From Phyllosticta citribraziliensis (Eukaryota), in assembly GCF_038025025.1 (NCBI RefSeq), contig NW_027117341.1:868001-932000 (forward strand): a DNA stretch of 64,000 nt. The letters run 5' to 3'. A program made the position numbers and the translations under genes. The notes beneath the pieces are model-generated. The model worked only from the letters and a program-made list of their open reading frames with translations, was not told the origin of the DNA and did no database searches. This document shows positions 14,801-42,173 of this stretch, in pieces; the stretch's first letter is position 1; each line of letters opens with the position of its first letter.

Positions 14801-15511
14801 CGCTTCTTACCCGGAATCACCTGGAGCAAGGACCGGAATACTGACAACAAAGAACAGCTCAATCAAATGATCCGATTTCTGTGGCGATGGAAAATGTCTT
14901 GCTTGGCGAAGTGGTCTAAGGCATAAACTTCACATTTTCACAGCTGGACAAAACTCATGGCTCCACGACAACGGAGAAAAGAAGTCTACAGAAAACACAT
15001 TATCGATTCCAAGTTCTCGTTTAAACGAACAAGGCGTTGACCCCAACATTACCATACCCATAGGTAATGCGATCAGCAGACGACCAGTCCTGTAAGTCGA
15101 GCTCAAGAAAACTTGAATTGCTCTTGTCTCACGTTGTCGGTGTCATCAAAAGGTTACTTTGTGAAAGCTACGGAACATAATCGTTCCGTCAAGAGGACGC
15201 GACTCAATGCTAGGGGTTGCACGCGCCCATCTAGCTAGATACGCGGTGGATGTGGCGGGGATGATTCCACGAATGCATTCCGATGCAAGGGATACAACCA
15301 CCCACCCTCAATCAACGGCCTTCAGGACTCGAGACGCAGCCTCACCTGCTCTCCAGGTTGCATGTGCCGCTTTTGAATCTTTTACTCGTCAGCTCCCTTG
15401 AGGTTCTTCGAAGCCAGGATCCGGCAAACAACGCGACTTTTGCTTCCCGACCCGAAACTCCCAGAGGCTTCATTGTCGACATTCCACAATCAACAAGCGA
15501 CTCGTTCTGTG

Positions 15512-18500
15512 ATGGTTTCCTTCAGCCGGTGGAGGGACAATCGCCATGGAGAATCAACACAGCACTTACGAGCGGGGGAGGAACAAGTTGGCATGACGAT
15601 AATCCGACCCGGCAGCAACCGCTCTTCTCGTCCACAATCCCAGGCGCGCAGTGGGACACCAGATGCGTGGCCACTTCCCGACGACGGCTCAACGGTCCAT
15701 CCACTCGACATTGAAACATGGACGAACCTCTCCCCTACCAAGAACTGGTCCCCAGACCACGATGACTCGGGCATTGGCGACCGCGAGCGCTTGCAGAGGA
15801 TACATAGCCTTGCTAGCCAGTACTCGCAGCTTCCCATATACCTCGACTCCGGCCGCAACCCGTTCAAAGCGCCCCCTGGCAGCACCCTAGATCCAAAGTC
15901 GCCGCATTTCAGCACAAGAGAATGGGCGAGGGCAGTCTTTCAGCTGCATGTGGCGGAGCCGTACAAAGCGCCTGTCCGAACTGCTGGTCTTGCGTTTGCG
16001 AATCTGACTGTCACTGGGTGGGGCGAGGACAATGAATGCCAGCGAACTGTCAGTACAGTCGTCTGGCAAGCGGTGGGTGCTCTCCGGAACAAATTGGGGA
16101 TTGGAAGGAGGAAAAAGAAAACAATTCTGAGGGCTTTCGATGGTATCGTTGAGGCCGGCGAAATGCTATTGGTTTTGGGTTTGTTGTTCGCTATCCCCCA
16201 CAACAGAAGAGTGGCTGACAGCCAACCAGGTCGACCTGGAAGCGGATGCACGACCCTTTTGAAAACCATCAGCGGCGACACACACGGACTGAATCTGGGA
16301 GACAGCTCATATATGAATTACCAAGGTGGACGATGACAATTATCATCGAGAGAACAATGTGGCTAAAGTCTGGACAGGAATCTCGCACGACCAGATGCGC
16401 ATGAATTGCCGCGGCGACGCCATCTACACAGCAGAACAAGACGTACACTTCCCGATGCTGACCGTCGGCGACACCTTAATATTTGCGGCGCATACTCGTG
16501 CTCCTCGACACATCCCCGGTGGGGTGGACAGGAAACGATACGCAGAGCACATGCGAGATGTGGCCATGGCCATGTATGGTATCAGTCACACTCTGAATAC
16601 CAAAGTGGGGGATGAGTACATTCGCGGAGTGAGCGGTGGAGAGCGAAAGCGCGTTAGCATCGCCGAAGCCACTTTGAGCATGAGTCCGCTGCAATGCTGG
16701 GACAATAGCACGAGAGGTCTAGACTCGGCCAATGCGCTGGAGTTTTGCAAAAACTTGAGAATACAGACAGAGATTCTGGAGCGGACTGCCTGCGTGACTT
16801 TGTACCAGGCCAGTCAGCCCATCTACGACGTATGTCTTGCACCTGAGCGGTGAATCATTGCTGACTTTCTGTTAAAGGTATTTGACAAGGTCACCGTCCT
16901 GTACGAAGGCCGCCAGATTTACTTTGGATCCTGCGACTCGGCCAAAAATTACTTCATCAACATGGGATTCGAGTGCCCTCAGCGACAGACGACGGCCGAC
17001 TTTCTCACGTCCATAACGAGCCCGGCGGAAAGGATCGTCAGTCTTGGGTTTGAGGGCAAAGTGCCGCATACGCCAGATGAATTCGCCGCGGCGTGGAAAG
17101 CGAGCCCTGAATATCAGCAATTGTGGGACGAGCTTCGAGTATATGACCGCAAATATGCCATCGGCGGCAGATATATGGAAATGTTCATTGCGTCGAAAAG
17201 GGCTGACCAGGCAAAGTTCACGTGGGTTGCGACTATTCCCTTAATTCGTTGCGTAGCTGATTTGAAGGCAGGAGGGCCGCATCTCCGTACACGCTGGCAT
17301 ACGGCCAGCAAGTGGCAATCTGCCTCTGGAGATGCATCAAACGCTTAAAGGCAGACCCAACCTTGAGTTATGGTCAATTCATCGCCAACTTTGCCATGGC
17401 GTTGATCCTGGGAAGCGTGTTTTACAATCTCGAAGATGGAACCAAGAGCTTCTTCCAGCGGGGCGCTTTGCTCTTTTTTGCAATACTAAACAACGCCTTT
17501 GGAAGCGCACTCGAGGTAAAGCCATCTCCATACTTGATTTTAGTGGTATTCACATGTGCCAGATTCTCATTCTCTACGCCCAACGTCCCATAGTCGAAAA
17601 ACACTCTCGCTATGCGCTCTATCACCCAAGCGCCGAAGCCTTCGCCTCGATCCTCGTTGACATCCCCTACAAAATTGGAAACGCCATCACTTTCAATTTG
17701 ACGCTCTACTTTCTCACCAACCTCCGCCGTGAACCAGAGGCTTTTTTCTTCTTCCTGCTGATCTCCTTCTCCTTGACACTCGCCATGAGCATGATGTTCC
17801 GGACTATGGCCAGCATTTCGCGAACCGTCAGCCAAGCCATGGTCCCGGCCGCGCTTCTCATTCTTGCCATCGTCATCTTTGCCGGCTTCGTCCTCCCTGT
17901 GAGGTACATGAGGGGCTGGAGCAGATGGATCAATTACATCAATCCGGTAGCTTATGGGTTTGAAGCGCTCATGGTCAACGAGTTTCATGATAGAGACTTC
18001 CCCTGTTCAACGTTCGTCCCATCCGGATATCCTAACATAGGTCCGGAAAACAGAGTCTGCTCGGTCTTGGGGGCGCAGGCGGGGTCGTCAATGGTCAGCG
18101 GCGACGCGTATATCAAGTCGTCGTTCAATTACGAGTACAAGTGGCGGTATTTCACCCCTTTTTCCCGAATTTGTGTCGTGGTCGCTGAATAGTCGCAGTA
18201 ACTTTTGCATCATCGTTCCTTTCATCTTCTTCTTCATGGCAACCCATCTCCTGGCCACCGAGTTCGTCCAGGAAAAGAAGTCGAAGGGCGAAGTGCTCGT
18301 TTTCAGGGGCGGGAGCCGCCCCAAACACGTCCCGCTCGACGACCCGGAAATAGTGCCCTCGCGGCACGACAGCAAAGCTTCAGTCACCAGCTTTTCCACC
18401 CCTTTCAAGAAGGCTACGTCGACGTTTCACTGGCAAGAGCTTTGCTATGAAATCAAGACCAAAGAGGGCGCCAAGAGGCTCCTTGATCACATTGACGGCT

Positions 18501-20527
18501 GGGTCAAGCCACGCACCATGACGGCGCTGATGGGCATGAGCGGCGCGGGCAAGACGACCCTGTTGAACACTCTCGCCGCGCGCACGACTGTCGGCGTCGT
18601 GTCGGGCGAGGTTTATATGGATGGACTCCCACGCAACCGAAATTTTCAGCGCTTGACGGGATACGTACAGCAGCAGGATTTGCACCTGTCAACGTCGACA
18701 GTCCGTGAAGCAGTGAATTTCAGCGCCTTGCTCAGGCAGCCCCGCGAGATTAGCAGGCAGGAGAAGTTGAGCTATGCATGGGACATAATACGGCTGCTCG
18801 ACATGGAGGAGTATGCAGATGCAGTGGTGGGCGTACCGGGCGAGGGTAAGTCAACTCTTGCATGAATTGTCCTTTATCTCGAGGTTTACTGACGCATGTC
18901 AGGACTCAACGTTGAGCAGCGTCGGCGCCTGACCATCGGCGTCGAACTGGCAGCAAAGCCCCAGCTCTTGTTCCTCGACGAGCCCACGTCCGGCCTCGAC
19001 AGTCAGACCTCCTGGGCCATTTGCGACTTGATCGAGAAGCTAGCTAACAATGGGCTCGCCGTGCTTTGCACGATCCACCAGCCATCAGCCATGTTGTTTG
19101 AGCGCTTCGACCGCCTCTTGCTCCTTCATGAAGGCGGCCGCATGATCTACTTTGGCGACATTGGCCCCAATTCGTCGGCCGTCATCAACTATTTCGAATC
19201 TAAAGGCGGCCAGTCCTGTCCCTCTGACGCCAACCCCGCGGAATGGCTGCTCGAAGTAATCGGAGCCGCGCCGGGAAGTAGCACGGATATCGACTGGGCG
19301 CGGGCATGGCGAGACAGCAAAGAGGTCGAGGCGGTTCACTTGGAATTAATGCGGCTCAAGGCGAATCCGGGACGGCCGACACATGGCGCCGCTGGACAAG
19401 CAGAGCGGTACCGCGAATTTGCGGCGCCGTTTTCACGGCAATTCTGGCAGGTCACCAAGCGCGTCTTCCAGCAGTACTGGCGGACGCCGTCGTACATTTA
19501 CTCGAAAGCTGCCGTGTGTCTACTGTCGGTGAGTTGACTCCAAGTACACTGAGGACCACGCTGAACAAAGGCTGACTCCTAACAGGCTCTCTTCATCGGC
19601 TTCGTCTTCTTCCAAGCCGAGAATACGATTCAGGGGATGCAGAACCAGATGTTCGCCATCTTCATGCTCATGACAATCTTCGGGCAGCTAGTCCAACAAC
19701 TCATGCCCATCTTCGTCTCCCAACGCTCACTGTACGAAGCGCGCGAGCGGCCCTCCAAGACGTACGCATGGCCAGCCTTCCTCCTCTCCAACATCATCGT
19801 CGAGCTACCCTGGAACACGCTCATGGCCGGCTTCATCTTCCCCGTGTACTACCTCATCGGGCTGGACCGCAACGCGGCCGAGGCCAATGCGGCACCCACG
19901 CGGGCCGGGCTCATGTTCCTGCTCATCTGGTGCATGCTCATCTTCACGTCGACGTTCGGGGCCCTGACCATCGCGGCCGCCAGCACGCCCGAGGCCGGCG
20001 CCAACCTGGCCAACCTGTGCATCAGCCTGGGCCTCGTCTTCAGCGGCGTGCTGGCCTCGCCGCAGGCCCTGCCGCGCTTCTGGATTTTCATGTACCGCGT
20101 CTCGCCCTTCACCTACCTCGTCTCGGCCATCCTCAGCACCGCCGTCGCCGACGCCTCTGTGCGTTGTGCCCCGAATGAGTTCCTCGTCCTCCAGCCCGCC
20201 AGCCTGTCGCTGCCGTCGCTCGCGCAGCTGGATCCTCTCGCTGCGCCTGGCGGCAGCGGTGGCAATGCGACTGGGGCGATCACTTGCCAGGACTACATGG
20301 CCCCGTACATTGCTGTCGCTGGCGGCTACGTCGATAATCACAACGCCACGGCCGACTGTCGCTACTGCACGCTTGCCGATACAAACACGTTTCTCGAGTC
20401 CATCTCGTCGCGGTACTCGGATGCGTGGCGCAATTTCGGCATTCTATGGGCGTATGTCGTGTTCAATGTGTGCGGCGCCTTCTTCCTGTACTGGTTAGTG
20501 CGTGTGCCGAAGAGGAGGAATGCGTAG
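15512..20527 (+). CDS. Full-size ABCG (PDR-type) multidrug transporter, NBD-TMD-NBD-TMD, ~1533 aa, 9 exons
   Basis: Exons 15512-16178, 16230-16325, 16378-16829, 16878-17221, 17272-17515, 17563-18146, 18199-18845, 18903-19528 and 19586-20527 join in frame. NBD1 has the PDR Walker [23 protein letters not shown] and [13 protein letters not shown]2 has [24 protein letters not shown] and [12 protein letters not shown]. Both TMDs carry the Cys-containing extracellular loops. The start codon is uncertain (15512 or 15593). Confidence 0.95.
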
Positions 20528-22911: not shown

Positions 22912-24071
22912 ATGAAGGCCAGAAGCAACCCAATTGAGATTCTCGTCTTTGGGACCGGAGGTACGTGTCCCTCAATGGACTGAGAGGGTCTTTTGCTTAC
23001 AAAATTTAGCTGTCGGATCAACACTTGCCTGGAGGTTAGCACAAAATCCTTTGGCCAGATTGTCCGTGGTTTGCCGCTCCAATTACGATGCTGTCCGGAC
23101 AGGGGGAATCACTCTGAACACCAAGATCTGGGGCAATGGCCACTTCATGCCTCATCGCGTAGTCCGTTCGCCGCTGGAGGTGTCGCGCGTTCCGTTCGAC
23201 TATGTCATTTGCAGCAACAAGGTTTCCCCAATCCCGGACGACGACACAACTGCCCGCTCAATCGCTCCGGTGGTGTCACCTCGGACGGTCCTGGTCACGG
23301 CCCAGAATGGTGTCGGAGTTGAAACCCCTTTGCGGAGGACGTTCCACAACAATACGATTCTGTCAGCCATTTGCTACATCAGCTGCTTGCAACCCGTTCC
23401 TGGATTCATCACCCAGCCGGCGGGCATTCGGGCGCATGCTTTCCATATTGGTACATTCGACGCTCGTTCGCCACGGGATGAGACCCGCCTTGCGCAATTC
23501 GTCAAGTTCGACAAGGCTTTCCAAGCCATCGAGGATGTTCAACAAGAGCGTTGGTGCAAACAAATTTTCAACGGTGCTTGGAATCCTGTTACCGCCATTT
23601 CTGGTCTGGATACGCATCAGATACTCAACAGCTCCTCCCTCTTCCTTGACAACGTTCAAAACCTGGCAAGGGAAATTTGGCAGGTGGCTTCCAAATTGGG
23701 GATTAGCTTGCCTGAAGATCTTCCAGAAAAGACGGTTTCCATCGCCAGATCGTCCAACCCCGTTGTGCCATCGATGCTTCAGGACGCCCGCAGAGCAAGA
23801 CCAATGGAGATCGAATCGCTTTGTGGTATGTTTCGCGACAGATGAAACAAAAAGTCCTGGCTAACCGCGAGCAGGAAATATTTGCAGACAAGCAGACAAG
23901 CTCGGAGTTCCTGTTCCGACAGTCAAGATGATGTACGATAAGCTGTTCTCCATGAACCAGGCTTTCACAACGGCTGCGGAAGAGAAGTTGGCGAGCCCAG
24001 GTCTCATGGTGCCTCCCCAAACTCTGCCTCACTTGGACATGCCACCAGCCAGAGTTGCTGCGACCGCGTAG
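22912..24071 (+). CDS. Ketopantoate-reductase-family (ApbA/PanE; KIVR-like) NADPH-dependent 2-keto-acid reductase, ~353 aa
   Basis: Exons 22912-22960, 23010-23825 and 23875-24071 join in frame. Rossmann motif ILVFGTGAVG, VVCRSNY, QNGVGVE, catalytic-Lys region RWCKQIFNGAWNP, and PSMLQDARRARPMEIESLCGN (conserved Glu). Confidence 0.9.
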
Positions 24072-24359
24072 GACGTCATCCACAAATATCCAGTGTGCAC
24101 AGGCCGTCTCCGATTCCTTTGATTCCCCATTTAATTGTTCACTTTCTTTTGTAACGGTCGAAACGACCGCCGAGACAACCCTTGAGTCATCTTTTCATGG
24201 GATTGGATGGAAGATATTTTGTAATCACTGGCCTTTCCAGATTGGTAATGGACGGGGAGACTTTCACTTTCTTTACCGATAGACTTTCCAATAGAGAAAA
24301 GTTCCTTTTGAGGACTTGAAGTGGACACGATCCGAAATCGCCCAGGGGCCGAACATGGG

Positions 24360-24755
24360 TCAGCCCCCACCGTTGATCTCTGCAACCAGATCAAGCGTTT
24401 CTTGTAAACCAGACTCTTTCGTGGCGTAGTGTATCCGCTTGAATCTGTCGCCTGGGTCTTCCTGAGAGAAGTCTTGCATCACCTCCTCCATGATCCGCCT
24501 CAAAGGAGGCAGAATCAGATCCAAGCCTTCTCTGGTTCGGCAAATATGCCGCTCTTGCTCTTTTAGTGTAGATTTTGCGTAGGAGATCCACTTTTTCTTC
24601 TTCCTTCGACGGCATTTCTTCACATTTGGTCTTTTGATATATTTCCTCGCCTCTAAAACGTGTTGTTCGGTACGTCGTTGATTGTCCTCCATGAGGAGTA
24701 TTTGGGCGTACCAGGACTGCACATCGCGCGCGGTCTTTTCGTAAAGGCGGATCAT
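24360..24755 (-). CDS. Small basic, helical hypothetical protein (131 aa) or gene remnant
   Basis: ATG-initiated ORF with helical character and a basic patch (KKCRRRKKKKW). No family recognised. Confidence 0.25.
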   Translation of the reverse strand: MIRLYEKTARDVQSWYAQILLMEDNQRRTEQHVLEARKYIKRPNVKKCRRRKKKKWISYAKSTLKEQERHICRTREGLDLILPPLRRIMEEVMQDFSQEDPGDRFKRIHYATKESGLQETLDLVAEINGGG

Positions 24756-25265
24756 TTTCTCTGTTCTGCGCTCCCAGCGCTTTCGTGTCCGCTCGTCGTA
24801 CCGTCTTTGGCGCCTTTGACCCTTTGTCTCAACGATGTGCGGAGAATTGGTTGACTCGTTCGCAGTGCCATCGGGTTGGGGCGGCTATTCTCTGTCAGCG
24901 TTATCATTTGCCAATTGGGGGATCGACAGAGGAGTACCATGATGGGCGTGGATGGGGCCGTGAACCATCCAACGTTCCGGTTGCAAGAACAATTGCCTTG
25001 TGAGATGCCAGAATGTCGGTGGCTGAATGTCGCCAAAGCCATGTCAGCGCTTGTTGCTGTGGGAACCGCAACCACGGTGGCGCGTCGCGACTTCCTTTGT
25101 GCAACGGACGCGTTTTCCCGCAAACGATCATCAAGCCCAGTCCAAAATCGGAATGTCATTTTCAACTTGCGTATATAGCGACCGAACAATGGTATGTTAA
25201 ACAAAGTAAACTGACAGATCAACAAAGCAAGCAAGCCACCCAGACACACACATAGCTCTCAATGT

Positions 25266-28200
25266 TCACACACCCCTCGTTTCCAGCGCCCGGTTCAAAG
25301 CCTTTTGGAACACATCAATGTTCTCTGGCCTCAGGATTGTGAAATGAGTTCCCTGGACCCGGTGGTAACGAAGAGGGCCCGGGCTATCGTCCTGCTCGAC
25401 GTCTTTCTGGCTTGCGCCCTCGACATAGTCCTTCCACTCGCACAGCCATTCGTGGCGCCAGACTTCATCGGTGCAATTGAAGTGCGGCAGGGGATTGACC
25501 CAAAACAGGTCGAACTTTGAGATCTTGCCGGTGGGCTCGTAGGCGCGTGTAATGTCCTGCAAGTTCTGATTGATGCGCTGCCAGGTTTCGACCTTGGCAT
25601 ACGTGAGGTCTAAGTTCTCGAGCGTGCCATCGGGGAATCGTGCAAAGATGGCGGCTGTGAATTCTGACTCCGGAATGTGTTCCATCTCCTCCTCCCACTG
25701 CAGCGCCGTCTCGTGGTCCAGAATCTGGAAAAAGTGCAGCAGGTCGATGAAGAAGTTGCGGCCCCTGTTACGGGTTGCGATCCTACGCAAGTCCGCGGGA
25801 TTGTCGATGCCACCGCAAAAGACGACTTCTTCGCCCATGTTCTCAAATCGTTTGGCGAGCTCGTAGGCCAACATGCCTCCGAAGCACAGTCCAAGGAAGG
25901 CATACGGACCCTCGGGCTGGTGCTTCTTGATTCCATCGACGTAAATTTCAAGCATCTCGTCCAGGGTCTTGAATGACTCCTCACCCTTGTGGAAGCCACG
26001 AACACGTAGCGCTAGAACGCGGCGATCGGGGATATATGGAAGCATTGGGAGCCATGTCAGGAACTCACCACCACCAGGGTGACAGAGAATAAGTGGAGTC
26101 TTTGACCCACTTGTCACAAGAGGGACGATGGGGTCGTACTCTGGCGTAACAGTGCCCAGGCTGAGCAGCATCATGTCTACATCTCTGATGGTGCGACATG
26201 CGAGAAAGAGAGCCATCGAAATAGGGTCTTCGGATTCCAGCTCCTTCTCCAGGCGAGACTTGATCCGAAGATATCCAAGGCTTTCAATTCCCAGATCCGC
26301 CATTGGCAAGTCAAGATGCAGCTCCATTGTATCGATTCCTGTCTCTTGTACAATGGTCTTTTCAATCACCTTTTGCAGAGGAGTGGCCAACTCTTCGCCG
26401 TCGACCTTCTTCTTTCGGGGCTCGGGTGCTTTTTCGGCAAGCTTGTACTGGTCAAAGCAACCCGCTTGGTAGCTTTTCTTCAGCTTTGCCCGGCTCAGCT
26501 TGCCAATGGTTGACTTGGGCATCAGCTCTTTGGGCAGAGGAATGACCTCAGACGGCTTCTTCCTGCAAAACCGAATGCAAGTCTCGTTGATGCTGGCGAT
26601 CGCGTTCCGCAGCTCAGGGGAGTCTTGAGTGGCGTCGCTCACTGGGTTGAACAAGATTATCATTTCCTCGGTATCGGACTCTGACTTGGTTCCCCATACA
26701 GCGAAAGATGCAATGTATCCGGGCGATATTCCAGGGATCTTTGACGTCTCTATGGCGTGTTCCAGCTCGAATGATGAGTAGTTTTGGCCGTTGATGATGA
26801 TGATTTCCTTGGAGCGACCGACAATGACCAGGTTTCCTTGGTCGTCGAGCTTTGTCTGATCACCAGTGTCAAACCAGCCATCAGATGTCATGCAACCGGC
26901 ATTGGCAGAGTCGTTGTTGAAGTATCCGTTGAATACCATGGCGCCCTTCAGCTGCAGGGAACCGACAGAACCAGGCTTAACAGGTTTCTGGTCCTCGTCC
27001 AGAATGCGCATTTGATGTTGCGGTAGAAGTTTGCCGACAGAGGCGAAGACGTATCGCCTCTTTACGTCGTAGATTGGACATTGAGTGTTGTAGAAAATGG
27101 CGGAGCAAGTCTCCGAGAGACCGTAAGCAGACTTGATAGCGTTCCTCGGGGCTCCGAACTTGGTGAGAATCTCTTCTCCCGCCTCGAACACGACTGTCTT
27201 GTTCGCTTCGCCACCGCACATGATTGTCCTGAGCTCGGAAAAGTCGAAGTCGAGCTTCCATCGTTCTTCAGCAGGCATATCTTTATACGCCCTGGCCGCG
27301 GTCGAGACGAAGAAGTTGGGAGCAAAGCTGAAGCCGACCTTGAACTCCGACAACGCTTGCCAGAATCGGACGGGTTCGCGGATCAAGTCGATGGCGGGGA
27401 TCATGACCTGACTTGCTCCAGCGTACACTGCATGCAAATGGTTTTCGCAGAGTGCAGCAGAGTGGTCAAAGCCTATCCATATTCGTTAGTCGAACGTTGC
27501 GTAAAAATCGCTGGATGGGAGTGACTTACTGACCCAAGACATAAAAGTCTGGGTGTTGTTCGTGTTGTGAAATCCGCACTTGATTTTGCTGCTCGAGCAG
27601 AGCTGCCTGTGTGTATACTGGACCGCCTTGGCATATCCGGTGCTTCCACTGGTGAAGAGCATGGTGGTCACCTCGTCTTCTCTTCCCACGCCTTCGTCAA
27701 ACCAACCCCCGCCATACATGTCATCGTGTCCGATTGGAGCCTCGAGCTTTTCCAGTTGGACGCTCTGTACCGTCACAGTCTTCATGCCCTGAATCGAGAC
27801 GAAGTATTTGGCGAGCGACTTCGTCGTCAGGATTGTTGGACCACAGAAGGTCTTATTGACGTTCTCAAGTTCACCGATCAACGTCGTTTGGTTGTTGGAC
27901 AAGGGCGAGAGCAGCGCTGGGATGCCGCCGGCAGCAATGACGCTCCAGTACCAGATACAGTTGTCGCGGTGGTTGTCGAAGTAGAGAACGATGCGTCTAT
28001 GCTCGGGGATGATGTCTGCCTGGCGGAGCTTTGCAGCATTTGTCTACGTCCCAATGAGCGATTGCGTCCAGGACTCGAGGGAGTTGCTTTACTCACCAAA
28101 GCTTCCCGGAGCAACTGCTCGTAGGTGAAAACCTCCGGCTGCTTTTCCCAACCACCCGTCTTGAAAGAAAGCGTATGGGTAGGCCATTTTTTCGCGGCTC

Positions 28201-28288
28201 TCTGAAGCAACTGCAGAACAGTCTGCGGGTCATCCGAATTTCCCCATGGCGAAATGGAGTAGAGGGCCTTGGCCAGACTGGTGAACAT
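25266..28288 (-). CDS. NRPS-like enzyme, A-T-TE architecture (alpha-keto acid dimerising synthetase family), ~970 aa
   Basis: Exons 28288-28097, 28043-27530 and 27472-25266 join in frame. A domain: LFTSGSTGYAKAV, SFDHSA, GGEAN, YGLSETC, DGWFDTGD, GRSKEIIIING, PKSTIGKLSR. T domain: DLGIESL (PPant Ser codon at 26280-26282). TE domain: YDPIVPL...HPGGGE, QPEGPYAFLGLCFGG, GTHFT. No condensation domain. Confidence 0.95.
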
Positions 28289-29730
28289 TGTGAATTGACC
28301 CCTCTGCAAGAACAGGGACAGCTCAGGGCAGAAGTTGAATCGGGGACGGACGCCTATACGAGAAACTGGTAATGCGAAGATTGGATTCCACCGCTGAACA
28401 TCCAATGCCAACGGCAGCTCTCTCGAGTGCACCCAGGATCCAACAAGGTTCTCGTTTATATTCGCCCATTTCTGTCCCTGTGATATACCGCCATATCCGT
28501 TATCGAGCATTCCATTTCGCATCGTCTTGGCCACAAAACAATGGCAGACTGAGCAGACCATCCGTCATGTTTGTCGTTCTTGCAATCCATGCCGAAAGGG
28601 GTAGTGCGTGCCCATCCGATGTGAATTTGGCAACTCTAGCCCGTGCCTTGATGAATGCATTCCTCGCGAAAGCGCACCCGTAGACCCTGTTGTTAGTGGA
28701 GGGGTAATTTCATCGTCCCTGTTGAGATTCAGCCTCGCGGACGCATGCAAGGGCGAGGACTCGTCGCGCTCGGCAGTGCTGGAATAGCTGTGACAAGCCG
28801 TATCGCGCAATCTGCTAGACCCTTGGATGGGGTGAATTGCCATTTGGACGGTAATAATGCCAATAGCGAATTGTGCCGAGCTTATTGTGTCCTCAATTAA
28901 AGACCTCTGAAGCGCAATCATGAGGGGACAGCGGGATCGCTGAACCAGGAGACTGGTACGGCAGCGGCGCGGGAACTTACGAACTCTTCCCCAAATTTGC
29001 TAGGACGTTTTCAGTTAGCCTTGGCATTGCGTTGATGTGCTCCTCTGGCAACTGTCAATTCGTTCCGCAAGCGGGTCGTAGGCGTCAAAATGCTCAACAA
29101 TTGAGTATTTGCAGTTGAAGGCTAGATTGATGAAGCGAATCGCTCCGTCAATATGCCTCAATGACAGGCACTGCCATCGTCAAAGTCGTCGAAGGTTTGA
29201 GAACGAACCTTCCAAAAGTCCAGCTGGCGAGTCAGCATTGGTGTTGAGCAAGGAATGTGTTTGGAAAGCAGCAGTATTTGCTTCCAGTCTATCGACTGAT
29301 TGATGCTCTTTGTTATCACATTGTTCCATGAAAAGAAACGATAAGAGCTAGAAGCCGAGAGTAAAGAAGAACCGAGAAGATGAACCGCAACTGCAAGGAA
29401 AGTGTGCCGATAAAGCCATACTTTTGGGTGTATGCAGGTCCATGCCACATCATCATTCATGCATTCAGTCATGTCGTCTTGAAGCCTCGCACCGTCCTTG
29501 CTGTGAGTCCTTCCTGGATCTGGCATTTCCTTTTTATTGTTCAAGTCCAAAACCACTCCCGCATCAAACCTCTCCGTCGAGGCTTTCGGCGAGGGTTGGA
29601 CATGTTTCGTAGAGACCAGCTCTTAGGCTTTCTTCCTCTTTTACTTTCCCTCTGGACTGCAAGATCCGTGCTCTTCATCCGAATGAAACTCAGAGCGCAT
29701 GCAATGCTCATGAGAATCAACGATCTCTCC

Positions 29731-31196
29731 TCATTGACCCCCACGGTTGGTCTCATCTTTTCTCTCCACCTTGCCGACTCCCCTCAGGCTCAGGTAGACG
29801 TCTGTGCCCCAGCCCCACAGACTCTGCACCGCGATACCTCCTCCAAAGTACTCGGCATAGGCCCTTCCTAACGGTAGCCCATATCCGAGTCCTGCAATGC
29901 TGGATCCTCCACCGCTGCCGCTCAAAACATCCAAGCCGCCTCCCGCACCTAATGAGGCACCACCGTGGTAAAGGTCTGGCTCTTCGGCTTCCTCTTCATT
30001 GAATGTCGTGAAGCTGTACTCCCATATCCTGGCGTAATTCCTTGGTGCAATGCCCCCGCCACGATCTCGAATGCGGATGGTCACGCCGGGGGTACTCTCA
30101 GCCAAAGGTCGTATGGTTGCCGCGGCAGCACGCACGGCTGGGGAGTGTGTCTCCTTCTCCAACATCGCATCGGTTTTGCTTGCCCTGTCCAAGTTTCCCT
30201 GTTCCAAATTTGTGATGCCATCGCTGCTGTTCGGCGGCGGAGCTTCTGGGAGTGGCGCAATGGTCACTTCGACCGGCTCGCGCTCCATCCCTCGCTCGAC
30301 TGTTGCGCGGAACGCATTCTTGAGAAGCTCGGTTATAATGTATTCGAGATGCATCGGGATGTGGGCAAAGGTGTAATCGGGCTCTCCGTTGATGACGAGC
30401 GAGGGGCGGACACCGTATTTGAGTTCGCAAAGTTCAGCAACCATGTCCTCACATTGACGGATAACATCCGCTGGGCGCAGGCAGGTGTCGATGACGCCAA
30501 TGAAGGACGACTTTTGCGGCTCCGGCTCGGGGCAAAGCTCCTTGTGAGGTTGCGACGACATGTGTAGCGCAATGTGCTGTTCCGCGATGAGGCGGGTGCC
30601 GATGCGAGCGCGTAGATGCTCATCCAGAAATTTTGTGACCTCCGGAGGGGTAATGTACCGTCTTGCTTCCAAGAATCCCCTAGCCAGTGTACCGATTGTG
30701 TTTGCATGAGTGTGTACAAGATCGGCCATAACCTCTGTAAACTCCAGTTCCTCCTCGAGCGTCGTAATCTTCCTCTTTGCCCATGGCAATAATGTGGACA
30801 AGGAATGAAGGTAGTTTCCGTGGATTTTGGAGACGTGAGGATTCGAGACGACAATGTAAGGCAGATTTCTCATGGATTGAATGCGGTGGGCAAGTCTGGC
30901 GGGCAGGAGGGAGAGGGTAAAGTTGGCAGAGTCGTATAGTTGCTCCGCGGCGAGAGGTGGGCTTCCATGCCTAGAAATTCTCGTCAGCCAACTCGACAAG
31001 GAGGAGGTGCTCTTCCAAAGTCAAACCTGACAAGGTCGGTCAAAGTCAAGGGATGCAAAGGACTGGCAGCAAGCTGCGCAATGTCGTCGTCGGTGACGGT
31101 CTTGGTTTGTAGGTGGGCGCGTCTTGAGGATTGGACAGTCACGGGATGTCGAAGTGCCGTGGCAGACCTGCCGTGCCTAGAGATAACCCGAAGCAT
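29731..31196 (-). CDS. Mitochondrial alpha-ketoacid dehydrogenase kinase (BCKDK/PDK family), ~469 aa
   Basis: Exons 31196-31027 and 30970-29731. Presequence-like N-terminus. Kinase motifs: LPARLAHRIQSMRNLPY, RIGTRLIAEQH, YIITELLKNAFRAT (N box), IRIRDRGGGI (G1), IAGLGYGLPLGRAYAEYFGG (G2), GWGTDVYL. Confidence 0.93.
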
Positions 31197-38759: not shown

Positions 38760-41420
38760 TCAAACGGCAACGGCAGTCCTGTCAGGGTTTGGAGAACTTG
38801 ACGGAGGTGGGGGTAGAGGCATATTTGGTGGCGGCGCGGGAGGCGGCAGGCCCATGACTGGCATCGAGCGTCGTGGGAAAACACTCCTTCTGGGTTGGCC
38901 GTCGGGACCCTGTTCTGACGCCGCACGTGGGGTACTCGGACGGCGATTGCTGCTGGTTGAAGGAGGACGGCCGTTGGATGAGCTTCTTTCGACGGCTGCG
39001 GCGCGGCCAAAGACACCCTTGGTAGAGACACCAACGGGCTGACGGTTGGAAAGGAACGCGGCACCAGGTTGAGAACGAATCTGCATACTGACAGGACGCC
39101 TGAGTGTCTGCGGAGGCTGTGCTTGTTGCGCTGGCACGGGAGGTTGCAAGGGAAAAGGCGAAGACGGGAGGACGGGCGACGCGGGAACTTGCGTCGTTGT
39201 TGCTATGGGCGTCTTTCTGGGCGACTGCGGACGCACTTTGGAAGAGCTAATCGAAACCTCAGGCACTCCGCTTCTCGCAATGGCTGGCAGTGGAGCTTGT
39301 TCCGTCGGCTTTTGGGCGGGTTGAACCGAAGTCCGAGTCGCTTCTGCAGGTTTCATCTCTTCGGAATGGTCGGCGGAGCCTGGAGAGTGGGATCTAAGTT
39401 GGGGGGTGCTCCGCTTAGCAACCAACTCGGGGCTGACCTTGACCGGTAGAGAAGGGCCAAGCGAGGAAATGCGACGAGGGGGAACAAAGTTGCTTGGCCG
39501 GACGGGAATTCGCCGAAACCCCGGTTTGTTGATTGGCGCCTGGCGGTTCGTAGTCTTGCCTGTGGGCACTGTCGCTGCAGGTACTGTCGAAACCCGCACT
39601 TGGGGCGGAGGATCTGAAGTTGATACAGGCTCCTGTTCGGCGTCGGGCGACTTGACTGGAGGAGCGCTAGAGCTTCGAATCGTAGGCAGAGGTTTGTACG
39701 GACTGGTGTGAAAGGGCCGAGAAAACGACATGCGACTCGTCAATGGTCTGGATGGTCCTTGTTTAAGGTGCGCATTTTGTTCCTCGGTTTGAGACACTGT
39801 CAAAGGTTGAGTTCCCGGGAGAGAAGGGCCGAAACGCGAGTTTCGTGCAGGCCTCGAATTAGGACCATCGCTTGCAGGTTCGCCCGTTGATGAAAGTGGC
39901 CTGGAAGGCATAGACCTTCGGTTGGACTTGGAACTGGGTGGACTCGTCACAGCCGATTTGAGGGTCGAGGGACTTTGAGGAGGTTCGTCCTCGGGGATGG
40001 TGGGAGCGTCGCGGCCTGGTGAAGGTGGGGCAGTAGAAGTGTCTGGCGAAGTACCTGACGTTCTGTTGGAAACTACAGAGATACGAGAACTCTCTCTCAG
40101 CTGTGCCAGTTGCGCGTGCTCGTAAGAGGCGCTAGTCGGTGCCGTGGATGGGGCTTCCATGGACTGTCGAATCGAGGCTAATCGGCCAGTGTTGTTGGTC
40201 GCCGTCGAAGCATTTCTACGCACTTTGGACGTTCCTGCCGAAGACCAGTCCGCGTTGCTGACTGGCGGTGTTTCGGCGGGAGACTGTGGCGGGGTGCGCT
40301 CGGTGTCGAAGCGCGTGCTATCTCGATGGACGAGGTAGCGGTGGCTGGGTGCCTTTTGCAGCCCATGACCAGTATCTTCGCTTGCCGTGGTATCAGATCT
40401 CGACCTCCTTCCAGCCAAGATGTCAATCTCTTTTCTCAGCGCCGATAACCAAGCACCCATCTCTTCGGGACTATCAAAAACGAGGAGTAAAGTCGAAGCC
40501 GTCTTCTTGGCCGCGGCACCGACCCGCAAACGCGTGAGGAAGGACTTGGGCGGCTGGGTCGTCACAACACCGTCCTCGTTGGTTGCGTGGGAGACTTGCA
40601 AGACCCAATGCTTTCCGGGAATGAGATCGCAGGCAAAAGCGGCCGAGTCTCTGCCTAGCTGCAAAATCTTTTCCGGGAGACGGTCAGAGGGGCCGCCGCC
40701 TGCGTACTGGAGGACATGGCCGGAAGTGGTGAGGACGTATACTTTGTGAGACAGTTCCGGCGCTCCAAGCTGCGAACTCGTTGACATGCGCTTTTCGCGG
40801 CGGGCCACTCTCTTCATTTCGGCGTCGTTCTTGTCTTCCGGGATGGTGGACATGTCGAGTTTGCTCTCGAGCTTCTCCTGGAGCAAACTGTACTGCCTCC
40901 GGTGACTCTGGGTCTTGATGATGGCCTCGGCGGAAGCATTGGTGGCTTGCAGCAGAGCGTGCTTGATGGCCTGAGGGTAAGCCTGGAAGAGGGGAGGCGG
41001 CTCCCAGTTGGCCGGGTTTTGGGACCTCTGCCTCTTGGACGGTCCGCGGGAGCGTGGTGGGACGGATCGCGACTGCATCGACTTGTGGGGGGACGAGGGG
41101 GTTGCAGTGACGGGACTCAGGGCCGTGGTTGTCTTGGGCTCGCGGAGGGCGGTTAGACCAGGCTCGTGGTGACCCCTGGCGCGCTCCACTTTTGGACGAC
41201 TGAAGAGGTGAAAGAGCGACATGGTCGACTTTCGGTTGTCGAGAGTCGAAAGGGAAGCATTGGCAGCGAGTCTGTCGTGGTGGAGTGGCACAACAGGACG
41301 CGTGCGGCTCCAGCGCAAGCTTGGCTGACGGGGGACATTTTGGACTGATGTATCGATCGGCGGCAAATCCTTGAGGGAGCGGCGGGACCCGATGATCGCA
41401 AGGCCGTCGGCGTCAGGCAT
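38760..41420 (-). CDS. Fungal PH-domain protein with a long Ser/Pro-rich tail, ~886 aa, intronless
   Basis: Long ORF with ATG at 41420 (MPDADG...). Conserved blocks WEPPPLFQAYPQAIKHA and PH-like KVYVLTTSGHVLQYAG...LPEKILQLGRDSAAFACDLIPGKHWVLQV...LLVFDSPEEMGAWLSALRKEI. C-terminal polyproline PPPAPPPNMPLPPPP. Confidence 0.85.
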   Translation of the reverse strand: MPDADGLAIIGSRRSLKDLPPIDTSVQNVPRQPSLRWSRTRPVVPLHHDRLAANASLSTLDNRKSTMSLFHLFSRPKVERARGHHEPGLTALREPKTTTALSPVTATPSSPHKSMQSRSVPPRSRGPSKRQRSQNPANWEPPPLFQAYPQAIKHALLQATNASAEAIIKTQSHRRQYSLLQEKLESKLDMSTIPEDKNDAEMKRVARREKRMSTSSQLGAPELSHKVYVLTTSGHVLQYAGGGPSDRLPEKILQLGRDSAAFACDLIPGKHWVLQVSHATNEDGVVTTQPPKSFLTRLRVGAAAKKTASTLLLVFDSPEEMGAWLSALRKEIDILAGRRSRSDTTASEDTGHGLQKAPSHRYLVHRDSTRFDTERTPPQSPAETPPVSNADWSSAGTSKVRRNASTATNNTGRLASIRQSMEAPSTAPTSASYEHAQLAQLRESSRISVVSNRTSGTSPDTSTAPPSPGRDAPTIPEDEPPQSPSTLKSAVTSPPSSKSNRRSMPSRPLSSTGEPASDGPNSRPARNSRFGPSLPGTQPLTVSQTEEQNAHLKQGPSRPLTSRMSFSRPFHTSPYKPLPTIRSSSAPPVKSPDAEQEPVSTSDPPPQVRVSTVPAATVPTGKTTNRQAPINKPGFRRIPVRPSNFVPPRRISSLGPSLPVKVSPELVAKRSTPQLRSHSPGSADHSEEMKPAEATRTSVQPAQKPTEQAPLPAIARSGVPEVSISSSKVRPQSPRKTPIATTTQVPASPVLPSSPFPLQPPVPAQQAQPPQTLRRPVSMQIRSQPGAAFLSNRQPVGVSTKGVFGRAAAVERSSSNGRPPSTSSNRRPSTPRAASEQGPDGQPRRSVFPRRSMPVMGLPPPAPPPNMPLPPPPSSSPNPDRTAVAV

Positions 41421-42173
41421 GGCTCTTGGAGGGGAGACAGGGCAGCCTTGACCTTGGCGACGGCGGGCGACAAGAGCGGGGAGAAATTTTGACGTGACGG
41501 CGAGCAAAGTGTCGAGGGCGGACAGGGCCAGGAACAGCTGGCCAAGGGCCCCGGAGAGGGCAGTGAGGCAATCTATCTGGCACTGGACTGGAGCAGCAGG
41601 AGCCTGGAGGCGGCACGCGCCGGACTGCAGTGCTTTGCGGTGCAGGAGACTGAAGCAGGCATGTGTCGAGGCTCGCCTGGAGGAGGACCTGAGGATTTTG
41701 ACGTCGGGAAAGGGGCACACGGAGAGGGACGGGGACTCGACTAACCGCTAACGTGCAGCCCGGGGGGTTCGAGGGTTCGAGGGTTCGAGACGAACGGGGC
41801 GGCTGTTTCACGCGCCGGGCGCTAGGAAGAGGCCCATGGCGCCGCGCCCGAGTCGCGATGGAGGACAAGGTGGTGTTGATGGTGGGTCAGGTCGTCGACG
41901 TCGTCTTCTTCGCCATCGTCGTCGTCGTCGTCGCCGTCGTCGTCCCCCGCCCGGCGCCTCGACCGCACGCTGGCCTGGGGCCATCGGGTGGTTGTTGTTG
42001 TCGTTGGAGCACGGGACTCGATCTCTGTTGGTTCCTGCATGCGATCGCCGCGGGCGTGGGGAGACGTCGCCCAGCCCACCGCAGTCGCCTCCCGCTCTCA
42101 CCACCACATGCACAACCAACATCACCGTTCTGGCCACATCTCTCCACCGCTCACGCCCTCCCGCTCCCTCATA

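What the first reader, a model, noticed from the sequence alone, without database searches (positions are those of the whole stretch)
22912..28288. Candidate undescribed biosynthetic unit: an atypical A-T-TE NRPS-like enzyme facing a ketopantoate/KIVR-type keto-acid reductase
Seen in sequence: two intact, convergently transcribed genes about 1.2 kb apart, embedded in gene-poor DNA. Established: fungal A-T-TE enzymes (AtrA, TdiA, MelA, ApvA, BtyA, MicA, PgnA types) dimerise aromatic alpha-keto acids into quinones, furanones or dioxolanones. ApbA-family reductases (KIVR) supply D-2-hydroxy acids to beauvericin/enniatin-type synthetases. I do not recall this pairing among characterised A-T-TE clusters. 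Inference: the reductase makes a 2-hydroxy acid, or reduces the product, and the NRPS-like enzyme forms an ester, lactone, dioxolanone or cyclic-diester product, possibly a phytotoxin.
Basis: partly seen in the sequence, partly recalled or inferred. Interest (0 to 1): 0.78.

Follow-up and report, generated by a model that had tools for sequence, protein, structure and literature searches.

The report
Conserved NRPS-like synthetase and reductase pair
A Phyllosticta fungus carries an expressed pair of neighbouring genes, a small one-module synthetase and a keto-acid reductase, that stay together across many distantly related fungi and belong to an unstudied branch of a known enzyme family, so they probably make a still unknown small molecule.

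Summary
At 22912-24071 (+) lies an intact three-exon ApbA/PanE-family reductase gene. At 28288-25266 (-) lies an intact three-exon A-T-TE NRPS-like gene. They are convergent, with stop codons 1194 nt apart. All four introns are removed in RNA-derived contigs of two runs, and the spliced products equal two annotated Phyllosticta citribraziliensis proteins.

The pairing is not chance. Reductase and synthetase homologues share a contig in 31 cases and carry adjacent locus tags in 4 genomes. All 15 fungal metagenome loci that include upstream DNA hold both genes. No other gene is conserved beside them.

The synthetase belongs to a well-separated clade (SH-like support 100). This clade has its own adenylation-domain signatures and a Cys thioesterase nucleophile. 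It is 32% identical to characterised MelA, which lies outside the clade.

My full-text searches found no paper describing this pairing.

The function is inferred. Most likely the reductase supplies or generates a 2-hydroxy acid, and the synthetase couples such units. The product is unknown.

- A third small spliced gene lies between the two genes.
- The surrounding DNA is not notably gene-poor.
- The reductase is not shown to be a KIVR orthologue.

Verdict: a new variant of a known kind, and a good genome-mining lead.

The parts
22912..22960 (+). Reductase exon 1 (Met1 to the first base of codon 17; holds the start of the GxGxxG Rossmann motif)
   Evidence: Sequence read. Intron 22961-23009 is skipped in runs X1 and X3. 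The spliced product equals P0409.
23010..23825 (+). Reductase exon 2: ApbA and ApbA_C domains. Arg39 at 23075-23077, Lys200 at 23558-23560, Asn204 at 23570-23572, Ser271 at 23771-23773, Glu283 at 23807-23809.
   Evidence: Pfam. These residues are invariant or nearly invariant in 21 homologues. Their PanE counterparts Lys176, Asn180 and Ser244 are as described in PMC3478992 (passages). Coordinates.
23875..24071 (+). Reductase exon 3 with stop codon (24069-24071)
   Evidence: Intron 23826-23874 is skipped in runs X1 and X3. The product is 353 aa and equals P0409.
24360..25042 (-). Third, small spliced gene between the pair. Exon 2 frame 24360-24884 (174 codons, very basic). Intron 24885-24937. 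Possible starts at 25042 or 24940. Not part of the conserved unit.
   Evidence: Joint 24884/24938 with CT..AC ends in runs X1 and X2. Sequence and translation. No Pfam family, no Atlas hit, and no counterpart in 19 related loci.
25266..27472 (-). NRPS-like exon 3: rest of the A domain, then T and TE. A4 FDHS from 27470, A10 Lys560 at 26499-26501, T-domain Ser633 at 26280-26282. TE Cys765 at 25884-25886, Asp792 at 25803-25805, His945 at 25344-25346. Stop at 25266-25268.
   Evidence: Pfam. Invariant columns. Coordinates. The transcript contigs of three runs end at 25140-25143.
27530..28043 (-). NRPS-like exon 2 (N-terminal half of the A-domain core, with A3 TSGSTG from 27653)
   Evidence: Pfam AMP-binding E 1.8e-09. 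Introns 27473-27529 and 28044-28096 are skipped in runs X1 and X3. Coordinates.
28097..28288 (-). NRPS-like exon 1 (64 codons from the ATG at 28288)
   Evidence: Translation. Aligns with the N-termini of orthologues. The spliced product of 970 aa equals P0402.

Best explanation
The locus is a two-gene biosynthetic unit. I put the probability that the two genes work together at about 0.85.

Shown:
- Gene 1 encodes a one-module A-T-TE synthetase with all core motifs, a phosphopantetheine-attachment serine, and a Cys-Asp-His thioesterase triad.
- Gene 2 encodes an ApbA/PanE-fold reductase that keeps the Rossmann motif and the Lys/Asn/Ser/Glu catalytic set.
- Both genes are transcribed and correctly spliced.
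- The two genes have been inherited together throughout a distinct clade of such synthetases.

Inferred (about 0.45 for this version): the reductase uses NADPH to turn a 2-keto acid into a 2-hydroxy acid. It does so either free, as KIVR does for beauvericin and enniatin synthetases, or on the carrier domain, as the built-in ketoreductases of bacterial depsipeptide synthetases do. The A domain loads the acid onto the T domain. One unit is passed to the TE cysteine as a thioester. A second T-bound unit then attacks it, giving a dimeric or oligomeric ester-type or lactone-type product that the TE releases.

The identity of the acid and of the product is unknown.
For: Intact, expressed genes:
- Pfam domains.
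- Four introns removed in the contigs of runs X1 and X3, and contigs of both genes present in X1, X2 and X3.
- Spliced products identical to annotated proteins P0402 and P0409.

Catalytic residues:
- In 26 of 26 aligned synthetases the T-domain Ser, the A10 Lys, the TE Cys in G-x-C-x-G-G and the TE Asp are invariant. The His is at least 90% conserved.
- In 21 reductases the GxGxxG motif and Ser271/Glu283 are invariant, and Lys200/Asn204 are at least 90% conserved.
- The full-length orthologue P0125 passes the TIGR00745 subfamily cut-off, 169.7 against 141.35 bits.

Linkage:
- 31 of the 109 reductase hits sit on a contig of exactly the same length as a synthetase hit.
- Adjacent locus tags occur in Plenodomus lingam, Ascochyta rabiei, Cladosporium fusiforme and Boeremia exigua.
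- Accession numbers are consecutive in five Phyllosticta species.
- 15 of 19 fungal metagenome loci hold the reductase. The other 4 lack upstream DNA.
- Those 19 loci form 14 groups at 95% DNA identity. 11 groups have upstream DNA, and all 11 hold the reductase.
- The pair persists although the orientation differs: divergent in the 15 loci, convergent here.
- No other ORF family is shared by the loci.
- Pairwise identities of the two proteins co-vary: r = 0.95 over 23 pairs, with 0 of 2000 permutations as high.

Precedent:
- A KPR-like KIVR is clustered with beauvericin synthetase and makes D-hydroxyisovalerate (PMC3478992, passages).
- The second-best solved relative of the reductase, PaKPR2 (8IWG), is inactive on ketopantoate and reduces other 2-keto acids with NADPH (bioRxiv 10.1101/2024.01.05.573888, abstract and passages).
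Against: - No product, substrate or activity is known for any member of the clade.
- The characterised A-T-TE enzymes need the 2-keto group for their C-C couplings and have no reductase partner. The reductase could therefore act after coupling instead.
- The A-domain signature differs from the common type, but I could not translate that into a substrate.
- The co-variation is also expected from shared descent alone.
- Contig depths do not measure co-regulation.
- In run X2 the reductase region is covered by a contig with minus-strand splice sites that keeps reductase intron 2. This is an antisense transcript, not reductase mRNA.
- I had no loci of Ser-type synthetases, so I cannot show that the reductase is absent from them.
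- One species (Phaeosphaeriaceae sp. PMI808) has the two truncated proteins on contigs of different length.
Confidence: 0.55

Rival explanations
1. The reductase is a tailoring enzyme. The synthetase dimerises two 2-keto acids as the classical enzymes do, and the reductase then reduces a keto group of the released quinone-, furanone- or butenolide-type product.
For: The overall architecture and the core motifs match those of the 2-keto-acid dimerising family. MelA, a characterised furanone-forming member, also has a Cys nucleophile. The linkage data fit a tailoring role as well as a supply role.
Against: The ApbA/PanE-family enzymes with known function cited here act on small free 2-keto acids: PanE, KIVR and PaKPR2. 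Reduction of a bulky aromatic dimer would be a new activity for the fold. The A-domain signature of the clade departs from the common type at several pocket-lining motifs, which suggests a changed substrate rather than only a changed product.
Confidence: 0.2
2. In Phyllosticta this unit is the missing synthetase for the genus's dioxolanones (guignardic, phenguignardic, alaguignardic and metguignardic acids). These join phenylpyruvate to a second, often branched-chain, 2-keto acid. The reductase would only modulate the keto-acid pool.
For: The genes for these compounds in Guignardia/Phyllosticta were still unknown in 2017, 2022 and 2025 (PMC5566483, PMC9047271, PMC12105029; passages). The compounds need an enzyme that accepts both aromatic and aliphatic keto acids (PMC11477566, passages), and this synthetase has an unusual A-domain signature. 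The pair is present in six Phyllosticta species. A kinase of the branched-chain/pyruvate keto-acid dehydrogenase kinase family lies next door.
Against: Dioxolanone formation needs no reduction. PgnA alone makes phenguignardic acid in Aspergillus (PMC5566483, passage). Phyllosticta genomes hold 6-8 NRPS-like clusters (PMC12506662, passage), so the prior for this one is low. As far as I recall, the clade is widespread in fungi not known for dioxolanones. Members of the clade have been auto-named after four different Swiss-Prot enzymes: melA, micA, tdiA and pngA. That argues PngA is not a close relative. The kinase is not conserved next to the pair elsewhere.
Confidence: 0.1
3. The reductase works in the oxidative direction or as a pool-balancing enzyme. 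It would supply the 2-keto acid substrate from a 2-hydroxy acid, taking the place of the aminotransferase found in classical clusters.
For: No aminotransferase or other tailoring gene is conserved next to the pair. Classical clusters carry a precursor-supply gene (recalled: TdiD, AtrD).
Against: The invariant Arg after the second beta-strand (CRSNY motif) suggests NADPH. That this arginine marks NADPH use is recalled for PanE and was not tested here. NADPH-dependent enzymes normally run reductively in cells.
Confidence: 0.1
4. The neighbourhood is coincidental. The reductase is the housekeeping ketopantoate reductase of pantothenate synthesis and merely lies next to an unrelated NRPS-like gene.
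For: The best family match is 2-dehydropantoate 2-reductase. I could not check for a second PanE/PAN5 gene, because no genome is held.
Against: The pair is kept across at least four fungal classes and through a change of orientation. All 11 independent informative loci have it. The reductase search returned only 109 hits, not the hundreds expected of a universal fungal gene. The hits that could be matched lie on synthetase contigs. No NCBIfam equivalog cut-off is reached.
Confidence: 0.03

Closest known systems
MelA, aspulvinone E synthetase of Aspergillus terreus (Swiss-Prot MELA_ASPTE; stored as P0399, cluster representative P0394)
   Same: A-T-TE architecture of similar length, 925 against 970 aa. 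Alignable end to end. The thioesterase nucleophile is Cys in both: GYCYGS against GLCFGG.
   Different: Only 32% identity. MelA carries the common A-domain signatures (SGGEAN, GFGMTETCAG). The window's enzyme has MCGGEAN, AYGLSETCSA and FDHS..CE. MelA falls outside the 29-row clade that holds the window's enzyme, which has SH-like support 100. From recall, no reductase partner is described for MelA; this was not tested here.
TdiA and MicA of Aspergillus nidulans; AtrA-type quinone synthetases; PgnA/PngA of A. terreus (2-keto-acid dimerising NRPS-like enzymes)
   Same: Same domain order and presumably the same double-tethering logic. The P. nodorum orthologue SNOG_03620 was compared with TdiA and AN3396 by Chooi et al. 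(PMC4205913, passages).
   Different: That paper reports 33% identity of the orthologue to TdiA and to AN3396. I could not fetch these sequences, so their signatures and tree position were not tested. Their clusters are described with aminotransferases, prenyltransferases or no partner, and not with a PanE-family reductase (recalled, plus PMC5566483 for PgnA acting alone).
KIVR (2-ketoisovalerate reductase) of beauvericin and enniatin clusters
   Same: A ketopantoate-reductase-like NADPH enzyme encoded beside a thiotemplate synthetase, with the same Lys/Asn/Ser catalytic set (PMC3478992, passages).
   Different: KIVR has 452 aa and partners a multimodular depsipeptide synthetase. The reductase here has 353 aa and partners a one-module A-T-TE enzyme. 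No hit is named KIVR. Orthology is not shown.
PaKPR2 of Pseudomonas aeruginosa (PDB 8IWG) and the structural-genomics reductase 3I83
   Same: These are the best solved sequence relatives of the reductase: 3I83 with E 7.9e-27 and 8IWG with E 3.5e-16. PaKPR2 shows that members of the fold can lose ketopantoate activity and reduce other 2-keto acids.
   Different: They are bacterial, only distantly similar, and have no synthetase partner.

Membership tests
Fungal non-reducing NRPS-like enzymes (A-T-TE, 2-keto-acid dimerising type) | Single module with A, T and TE domains and no condensation domain | tested here: met
   Pfam AMP-binding, PP-binding and Thioesterase only, on the exons and on the near-identical orthologue P0005.
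Fungal non-reducing NRPS-like enzymes (A-T-TE, 2-keto-acid dimerising type) | Intact catalytic motifs: A3, A5, A7 and the A10 Lys, the T-domain Ser, and the TE nucleophile-Asp-His triad | tested here: met
   Invariant columns in 26 sequences. Coordinates. The nucleophile is Cys rather than Ser, as in characterised MelA.
Fungal non-reducing NRPS-like enzymes (A-T-TE, 2-keto-acid dimerising type) | A-domain signature of the aromatic 2-keto-acid activating enzymes. Here this is taken as the consensus of the 46 Ser-type sequences and MelA: DHV(A)..E, SGGE, GFGMTETCAG. | tested here: not met
   The window's enzyme and 24 of the 25 Cys-nucleophile full-length sequences have FDHS..CE, [MF][CVT]GGEAN and [AV]YGLSETCSA instead (the 25th, P0327, carries the common signatures). 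That the common consensus equals the published 'nonribosomal code for aromatic 2-keto acids' is recalled, not tested.
Fungal non-reducing NRPS-like enzymes (A-T-TE, 2-keto-acid dimerising type) | Groups with characterised members in a tree | tested here: not met
   In a FastTree of 81 full-length sequences the window's orthologue lies in a 29-row clade (support 100), and MelA lies outside it. Only one characterised enzyme could be included.
Fungal non-reducing NRPS-like enzymes (A-T-TE, 2-keto-acid dimerising type) | Product is a dimer of two aromatic 2-keto acids | not testable with these tools
   Needs expression and chemistry.
ApbA/PanE ketopantoate reductase family | N-terminal Rossmann domain (ApbA) plus C-terminal helical domain (ApbA_C) | tested here: met
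   Pfam E 1.7e-16 and 1.2e-21. The full-length orthologue P0125 scores 169.7 bits on TIGR00745 against a cut-off of 141.35.
ApbA/PanE ketopantoate reductase family | GxGxxG motif and counterparts of PanE Lys176, Asn180, Ser244 and Glu256 | tested here: met
   GTGAVGS, Lys200, Asn204, Ser271 and Glu283 are conserved in 21 sequences. The PanE residue roles are from PMC3478992.
ApbA/PanE ketopantoate reductase family | True 2-dehydropantoate 2-reductase (equivalog level, a role in pantothenate synthesis) | tested here: not met
   No NCBIfam equivalog cut-off is reached. The best is 142.7 bits against 252. The models are bacterial, so this is weak evidence. The enzyme activity is not testable here.
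KIVR-type hydroxy-acid supply reductases of depsipeptide clusters | Orthology to Beauveria or Fusarium KIVR | tested here: inconclusive
   None of the 109 hits is named KIVR. That search only finds relatives sharing exact 5-residue words, and I could not fetch a KIVR sequence.

The most novel reading that the evidence does not exclude
The Cys-thioesterase, reductase-partnered clade is an unrecognised family of two-gene 'mini-clusters' spread over Dothideomycetes, Eurotiomycetes, Sordariomycetes and lichen-forming fungi. Its chemistry differs from the known quinone, furanone, butyrolactone and dioxolanone formation. The partner would make a 2-hydroxy acid, or reduce the carrier-bound 2-ketoacyl unit. 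The one-module synthetase would work iteratively as an ester-forming oligomerase/cyclase, a fungal one-module counterpart of the depsipeptide and enterobactin-type thioesterase logic. The result would be a new class of small cyclic or linear oligo-esters.
Probability: 0.25. Interest if true: 0.8.

Novelty: new variant of a known kind. Interest (0 to 1): 0.6.

Why it matters
Non-reducing NRPS-like enzymes are a well-studied source of fungal pigments and toxins, yet every characterised member that I could place or find belongs outside this clade.

A partner gene that is always present is a strong, testable clue to a changed substrate or chemistry. The pair is only about 4 kb of coding sequence, so expression is simple.

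The clade occurs in many crop pathogens and endophytes: Phyllosticta, Diplodia, Neofusicoccum, Macrophomina, Parastagonospora, Plenodomus, Ascochyta and Cercospora. It also occurs in a food mould, Penicillium nalgiovense. One solved example would therefore annotate many genomes.

In Phyllosticta it is also one of the few candidates for the still unassigned dioxolanone pathway.

Tried and rejected
- **Whole-genome check for a second PanE/PAN5 gene.** Not possible, because no genome is held for this window.
- **Earlier notes of this scan.** Three look-ups gave nothing.
- **RNA runs.** No listed holder is on record as RNA. I inferred RNA origin for X1 and X3 only from exact intron removal. Depths from contigs were not used to rank expression.
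- **Run X4.** It holds only diverged pieces (90-99% alike) and was not used.
- **Cys nucleophile as the distinguishing oddity.** Rejected, because characterised MelA has it too.
- **ABC transporter, kinase, FAD oxidase and DUF4470 neighbours as cluster members.** tblastn found none of them in the 19 related loci, and ORF clustering found no third shared family.
- **Transcription factor or tailoring enzyme in the flanks.** Pfam scans of 72 long ORFs and 75 shorter ORFs found none.
- **The small intervening ORF.** No Pfam family and no Atlas hit. No homology search was left to test its conservation.
- **Extracting a substrate from the A-domain pocket.** I only mapped motifs by eye and by alignment. 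Without sequences of TdiA, AtrA, PgnA or a PheA reference I could not derive a proper ten-residue code.
- **PDB sequence search.** No solved A-T-TE NRPS-like enzyme was found. The best hits were the McyG A-PCP didomain and StsA.
- **Papers read for the thioesterase nucleophile or the pairing.** PMC10316625, PMC12368960 and PMC10510592 held nothing relevant.
- **Not used.** Structure prediction, fold search and complex prediction, because they would not decide the open question.

Full report
**1. What is in the sequence**

Stop-to-stop ORFs show a 309-codon frame on the + strand (22916-23845). They also show three frames on the - strand (25266-27485, 27486-28043, 27878-28564).

Pfam places ApbA (E 1.7e-16) and ApbA_C (E 1.2e-21) on the + frame. 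On the - frames it places AMP-binding (1.7e-20 and 1.8e-09), PP-binding (4e-07) and Thioesterase (5.1e-22).

Reading the DNA gives these gene models:
- Reductase: exons 22912-22960, 23010-23825 and 23875-24071, with two 49-nt GT..AG introns.
- Synthetase: exons 28288-28097, 28043-27530 and 27472-25266, with introns of 53 and 57 nt.

Contigs of two public runs (X1, X3; two studies, two coded organisms) skip exactly these four introns. They are therefore assemblies of spliced RNA, although the runs are not on record as RNA.

Contigs of three runs end at 25140-25143. This is probably the 3' end of the synthetase mRNA.

The spliced products have 353 and 970 residues. They are identical to stored proteins P0409 and P0402. 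Their sources call these a '2-dehydropantoate 2-reductase-like protein' and a 'non-ribosomal peptide synthase-like protein' of Phyllosticta citribraziliensis, with consecutive accession numbers.

**2. Corrections to the observation**

The spacer is not empty:
- A minus-strand intron (24885-24937, GT..AG on that strand) is removed in runs X1 and X2.
- Downstream of it a frame stays open for 174 codons (24360-24884). It encodes a very basic protein with no Pfam family and no Atlas hit.
- Possible start codons lie at 25042 and 24940.
- In one P. citrichinensis annotation the accession numbers of the pair are one apart. This fits a gene model between them, but I could not see that record.
- In run X2 a contig with minus-strand splice sites runs on through reductase exon 3, the unspliced reductase intron 2 and part of exon 2. 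It has a further CT..GC joint at 23605/23712. This looks like an antisense transcript over the reductase gene.

The flanks hold a PDR-type ABC transporter (ORF pieces 15377-20527, +) and a kinase of the PDK/BCKDK family (29731-31020, -). The stretches 20.5-22.9 kb and 28.3-29.7 kb gave no Pfam match. 'Gene-poor' is therefore an overstatement.

**3. Is the pairing more than chance?**

The synthetase exon finds 649 relatives, of which the best 120 are listed:
- Phyllosticta at 98% and 82% identity.
- A band at 61-68% in Botryosphaeriales (Diplodia, Neofusicoccum, Lasiodiplodia, Macrophomina, Saccharata, Aplosporella) and Pleosporales (Boeremia, Ascochyta, Stagonosporopsis, Paraphoma, Pyrenochaeta, Parastagonospora, Phaeosphaeria, Plenodomus).
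- A band at 41-47% in Mycosphaerellales, lichen fungi, Penicillium nalgiovense, Sarocladium and Beauveria.

The reductase exon finds only 109 relatives, and these come from the same organisms.

Linkage by contig and annotation:
- For 31 of the 109, the longest contig has exactly the length of the contig of a synthetase hit: 29 against and 2 more.
- Four genomes have adjacent locus tags: IAQ61_002085/86, EKO05_0005588/89, Q7P37_005703/04 and OPT61_g3649/50.
- Five Phyllosticta species have consecutive accession numbers.
- One species (Phaeosphaeriaceae sp. PMI808) has the two proteins, both truncated, on contigs of different length.
- The remaining hits could not be matched either way. They sit on short contigs, or their partners are not among the listed 120.

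Linkage in metagenome DNA:
- A scan with an alignment of 26 synthetases returned 40 loci. 19 of them are fungal relatives (40-65% identity), and the rest are distant bacterial adenylating enzymes.
- tblastn finds the reductase in 15 of the 19. The other four (L004, L009, L015, L016) begin within the synthetase gene and have no upstream DNA.
- At 95% DNA identity the 19 loci form 14 groups. 11 groups have upstream DNA, and all 11 hold the reductase.
- In all 15 loci the reductase lies upstream on the opposite strand, divergent and roughly 0.7-1.9 kb away. In the window it lies downstream and convergent. The pair has therefore survived a rearrangement.

Other tests:
- Clustering all ORFs of at least 90 codons from these loci and the window found no third family shared beyond closely related contigs. 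One group of related contigs has an M28 peptidase and an amino-acid permease downstream.
- The window's ABC transporter, kinase, FAD oxidase and DUF4470 gene have no counterpart in any locus.
- Across 23 pairs, the pairwise identities of synthetases and reductases correlate with r = 0.95, and 0 of 2000 permutations reach that value. This is what joint inheritance predicts, but shared species history alone would also produce it.

**4. What kind of synthetase**

A search with the thioesterase domain alone against 1.84 billion representatives gave 19,053 hits, of which the best 150 were examined:
- The nearest carry G-x-C-[FW]-G-G at the nucleophile elbow.
- Most of the more distant A-T-TE proteins carry G-Y-S-x-G.

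Among 74 full-length sequences (850-1100 aa), 25 have Cys, 46 have Ser and 3 have another residue. With one exception, the Cys group also has its own A-domain motifs:

| Motif | Cys group | Ser group |
|---|---|---|
| A4 region | FDHS..CE.HL | DHV(A)..E |
| GGE motif | [MF][CVT]GGEAN | SGGE |
| A5 region | [AV]YGLSETCSA | GFGMTETCAG |

Tree results:
- In a FastTree built without the elbow columns, 24 of the 25 Cys sequences form one clade. It has SH-like support 100 and a stem of 0.7 changes per column.
- All 19 fungal loci that show these regions carry the clade's motifs.

The Cys itself is not unique:
- A search from the Penicillium member brought in an A. terreus protein whose 90% cluster contains Swiss-Prot MelA, the aspulvinone E synthetase.
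- MelA has GYCYGS but the common A-domain motifs.
- It is 32% identical to the Phyllosticta protein.
- It falls outside the clade, which has 29 rows and support 100 in an 81-row tree.

Members of the clade have been auto-named after melA, micA, tdiA or pngA by different or even the same annotation pipelines. I read this as a sign that none of those enzymes is a close relative. This is an inference.

Chooi et al. reported 33% identity of the P. nodorum orthologue SNOG_03620 to TdiA and to AN3396, and listed it as uncharacterised (PMC4205913, passages).

**5. What kind of reductase**

- The 21 aligned partners keep GxGxxG and the Arg of CRSNY. They also keep Lys200, Asn204, Ser271 and Glu283. 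These four correspond to PanE Lys176, Asn180, Ser244 and Glu256 (roles from PMC3478992, passages).
- The full-length orthologue passes the TIGR00745 subfamily cut-off but no equivalog cut-off.
- The best solved relatives are 3I83 and PaKPR2 (8IWG).
- PaKPR2 is reported to be inactive on ketopantoate and active on other 2-keto acids with NADPH (bioRxiv 10.1101/2024.01.05.573888, abstract and passages).
- The small number of relatives, and their restriction to genomes with the synthetase, argue against a housekeeping role. The direct test, a second PanE gene in the genome, could not be run.

**6. How it most likely works**

Shown: two intact, transcribed enzymes with complete catalytic equipment, inherited as a pair.

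Inferred, on three grounds:
- The only established role I know for a PanE-fold enzyme beside a fungal thiotemplate enzyme is KIVR making D-hydroxyisovalerate.
- The A-domain pocket motifs of this clade differ from the common type.
- No other supply or tailoring gene is conserved.

I therefore favour, at about 0.45, that the reductase provides a 2-hydroxy acid, free or on the carrier. The synthetase would then join two or more units through its Cys thioester intermediate into an ester-type or lactone-type product.

Rivals:
- Reduction of the finished dimer (0.2).
- The Phyllosticta dioxolanone pathway with an accessory reductase (0.1).
- Oxidative or pool-balancing supply of the keto acid (0.1).
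- Chance adjacency (0.03).

The dioxolanone idea is attractive because the genes for guignardic acid are still unassigned (PMC5566483, PMC9047271, PMC12105029; passages). Those compounds also mix aromatic and branched-chain keto acids (PMC11477566, passages). Against it:
- The chemistry needs no reduction.
- PgnA suffices alone in Aspergillus.
- Phyllosticta has 6-8 NRPS-like clusters (PMC12506662).
- The clade is far more widespread than the compounds are known to be.

**7. Novelty and limits**

Eight full-text searches found no paper that links an A-T-TE NRPS-like gene with a ketopantoate-reductase-family gene, and none on any member of this clade beyond the 2014 listing.

Limits:
- The library lacks most subscription journals, where such work is often published, and I could not query MIBiG.
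- I had no loci of Ser-type synthetases as a negative control.
- Only one characterised enzyme could be placed in the tree.
- The trees are FastTree only.

Verdict: a new variant of a known kind. It is a distinct, reductase-partnered clade of NRPS-like synthetases. The genes are real and expressed, and the product is unknown.

Noticed in passing
window 24360-25042 (-): A small spliced gene lies between the pair. Its intron 24885-24937 is removed in runs X1 and X2, followed by a 174-codon, very basic frame. It has no Pfam or Atlas match and no counterpart in the 19 related loci. Its conservation within Phyllosticta was not tested.
   Followed up: partly
window 23358-24980: A contig of run X2 has minus-strand splice sites (joints 24884/24938 and 23605/23712, the latter CT..GC). 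It retains reductase intron 2. This suggests an antisense transcript across the 3' half of the reductase gene, which could regulate it.
   Followed up: no
window 29731-31020 (-): A kinase of the mitochondrial keto-acid dehydrogenase kinase family (BCDHK_Adom3 E 3.8e-49, plus HATPase_c) lies directly upstream of a gene that probably uses 2-keto or 2-hydroxy acids. An X1 contig runs from the synthetase 5' end towards it. It is not found next to the pair in other fungi, so the adjacency is probably coincidental.
   Followed up: partly
window 15377-20527 (+): A PDR-type ABC transporter is read in seven ORF pieces, including one in-frame stop at 16851-16853. I did not check whether it is intact with introns or decayed. 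It could export the product in Phyllosticta, but it is not conserved with the pair.
   Followed up: no
L010, L011, L012, L016, L019 (e.g. L011:4779-6353 - and L011:7056-7796 -): In one group of related metagenome contigs the pair is followed by an M28 peptidase with a PA domain and by an amino-acid permease fragment. This may be plain synteny among close relatives.
   Followed up: partly
window 38760-41747 (-): A 995-codon open frame has no Pfam match. It lies next to the most G+C-rich part of the window (0.63-0.65 at 41-43 kb).
   Followed up: no
window 50029-55380 (+): A long TPR plus Glyco_transf_41 (O-GlcNAc-transferase-like) gene is read in three frames.
   Followed up: no
protein P0380 (Boeremia exigua OPT61_g3649): This gene model has 1362 aa, but Pfam finds only A, T and TE within the first 950 residues. 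The extra 400 residues are probably a merged neighbouring gene or an annotation error.
   Followed up: partly
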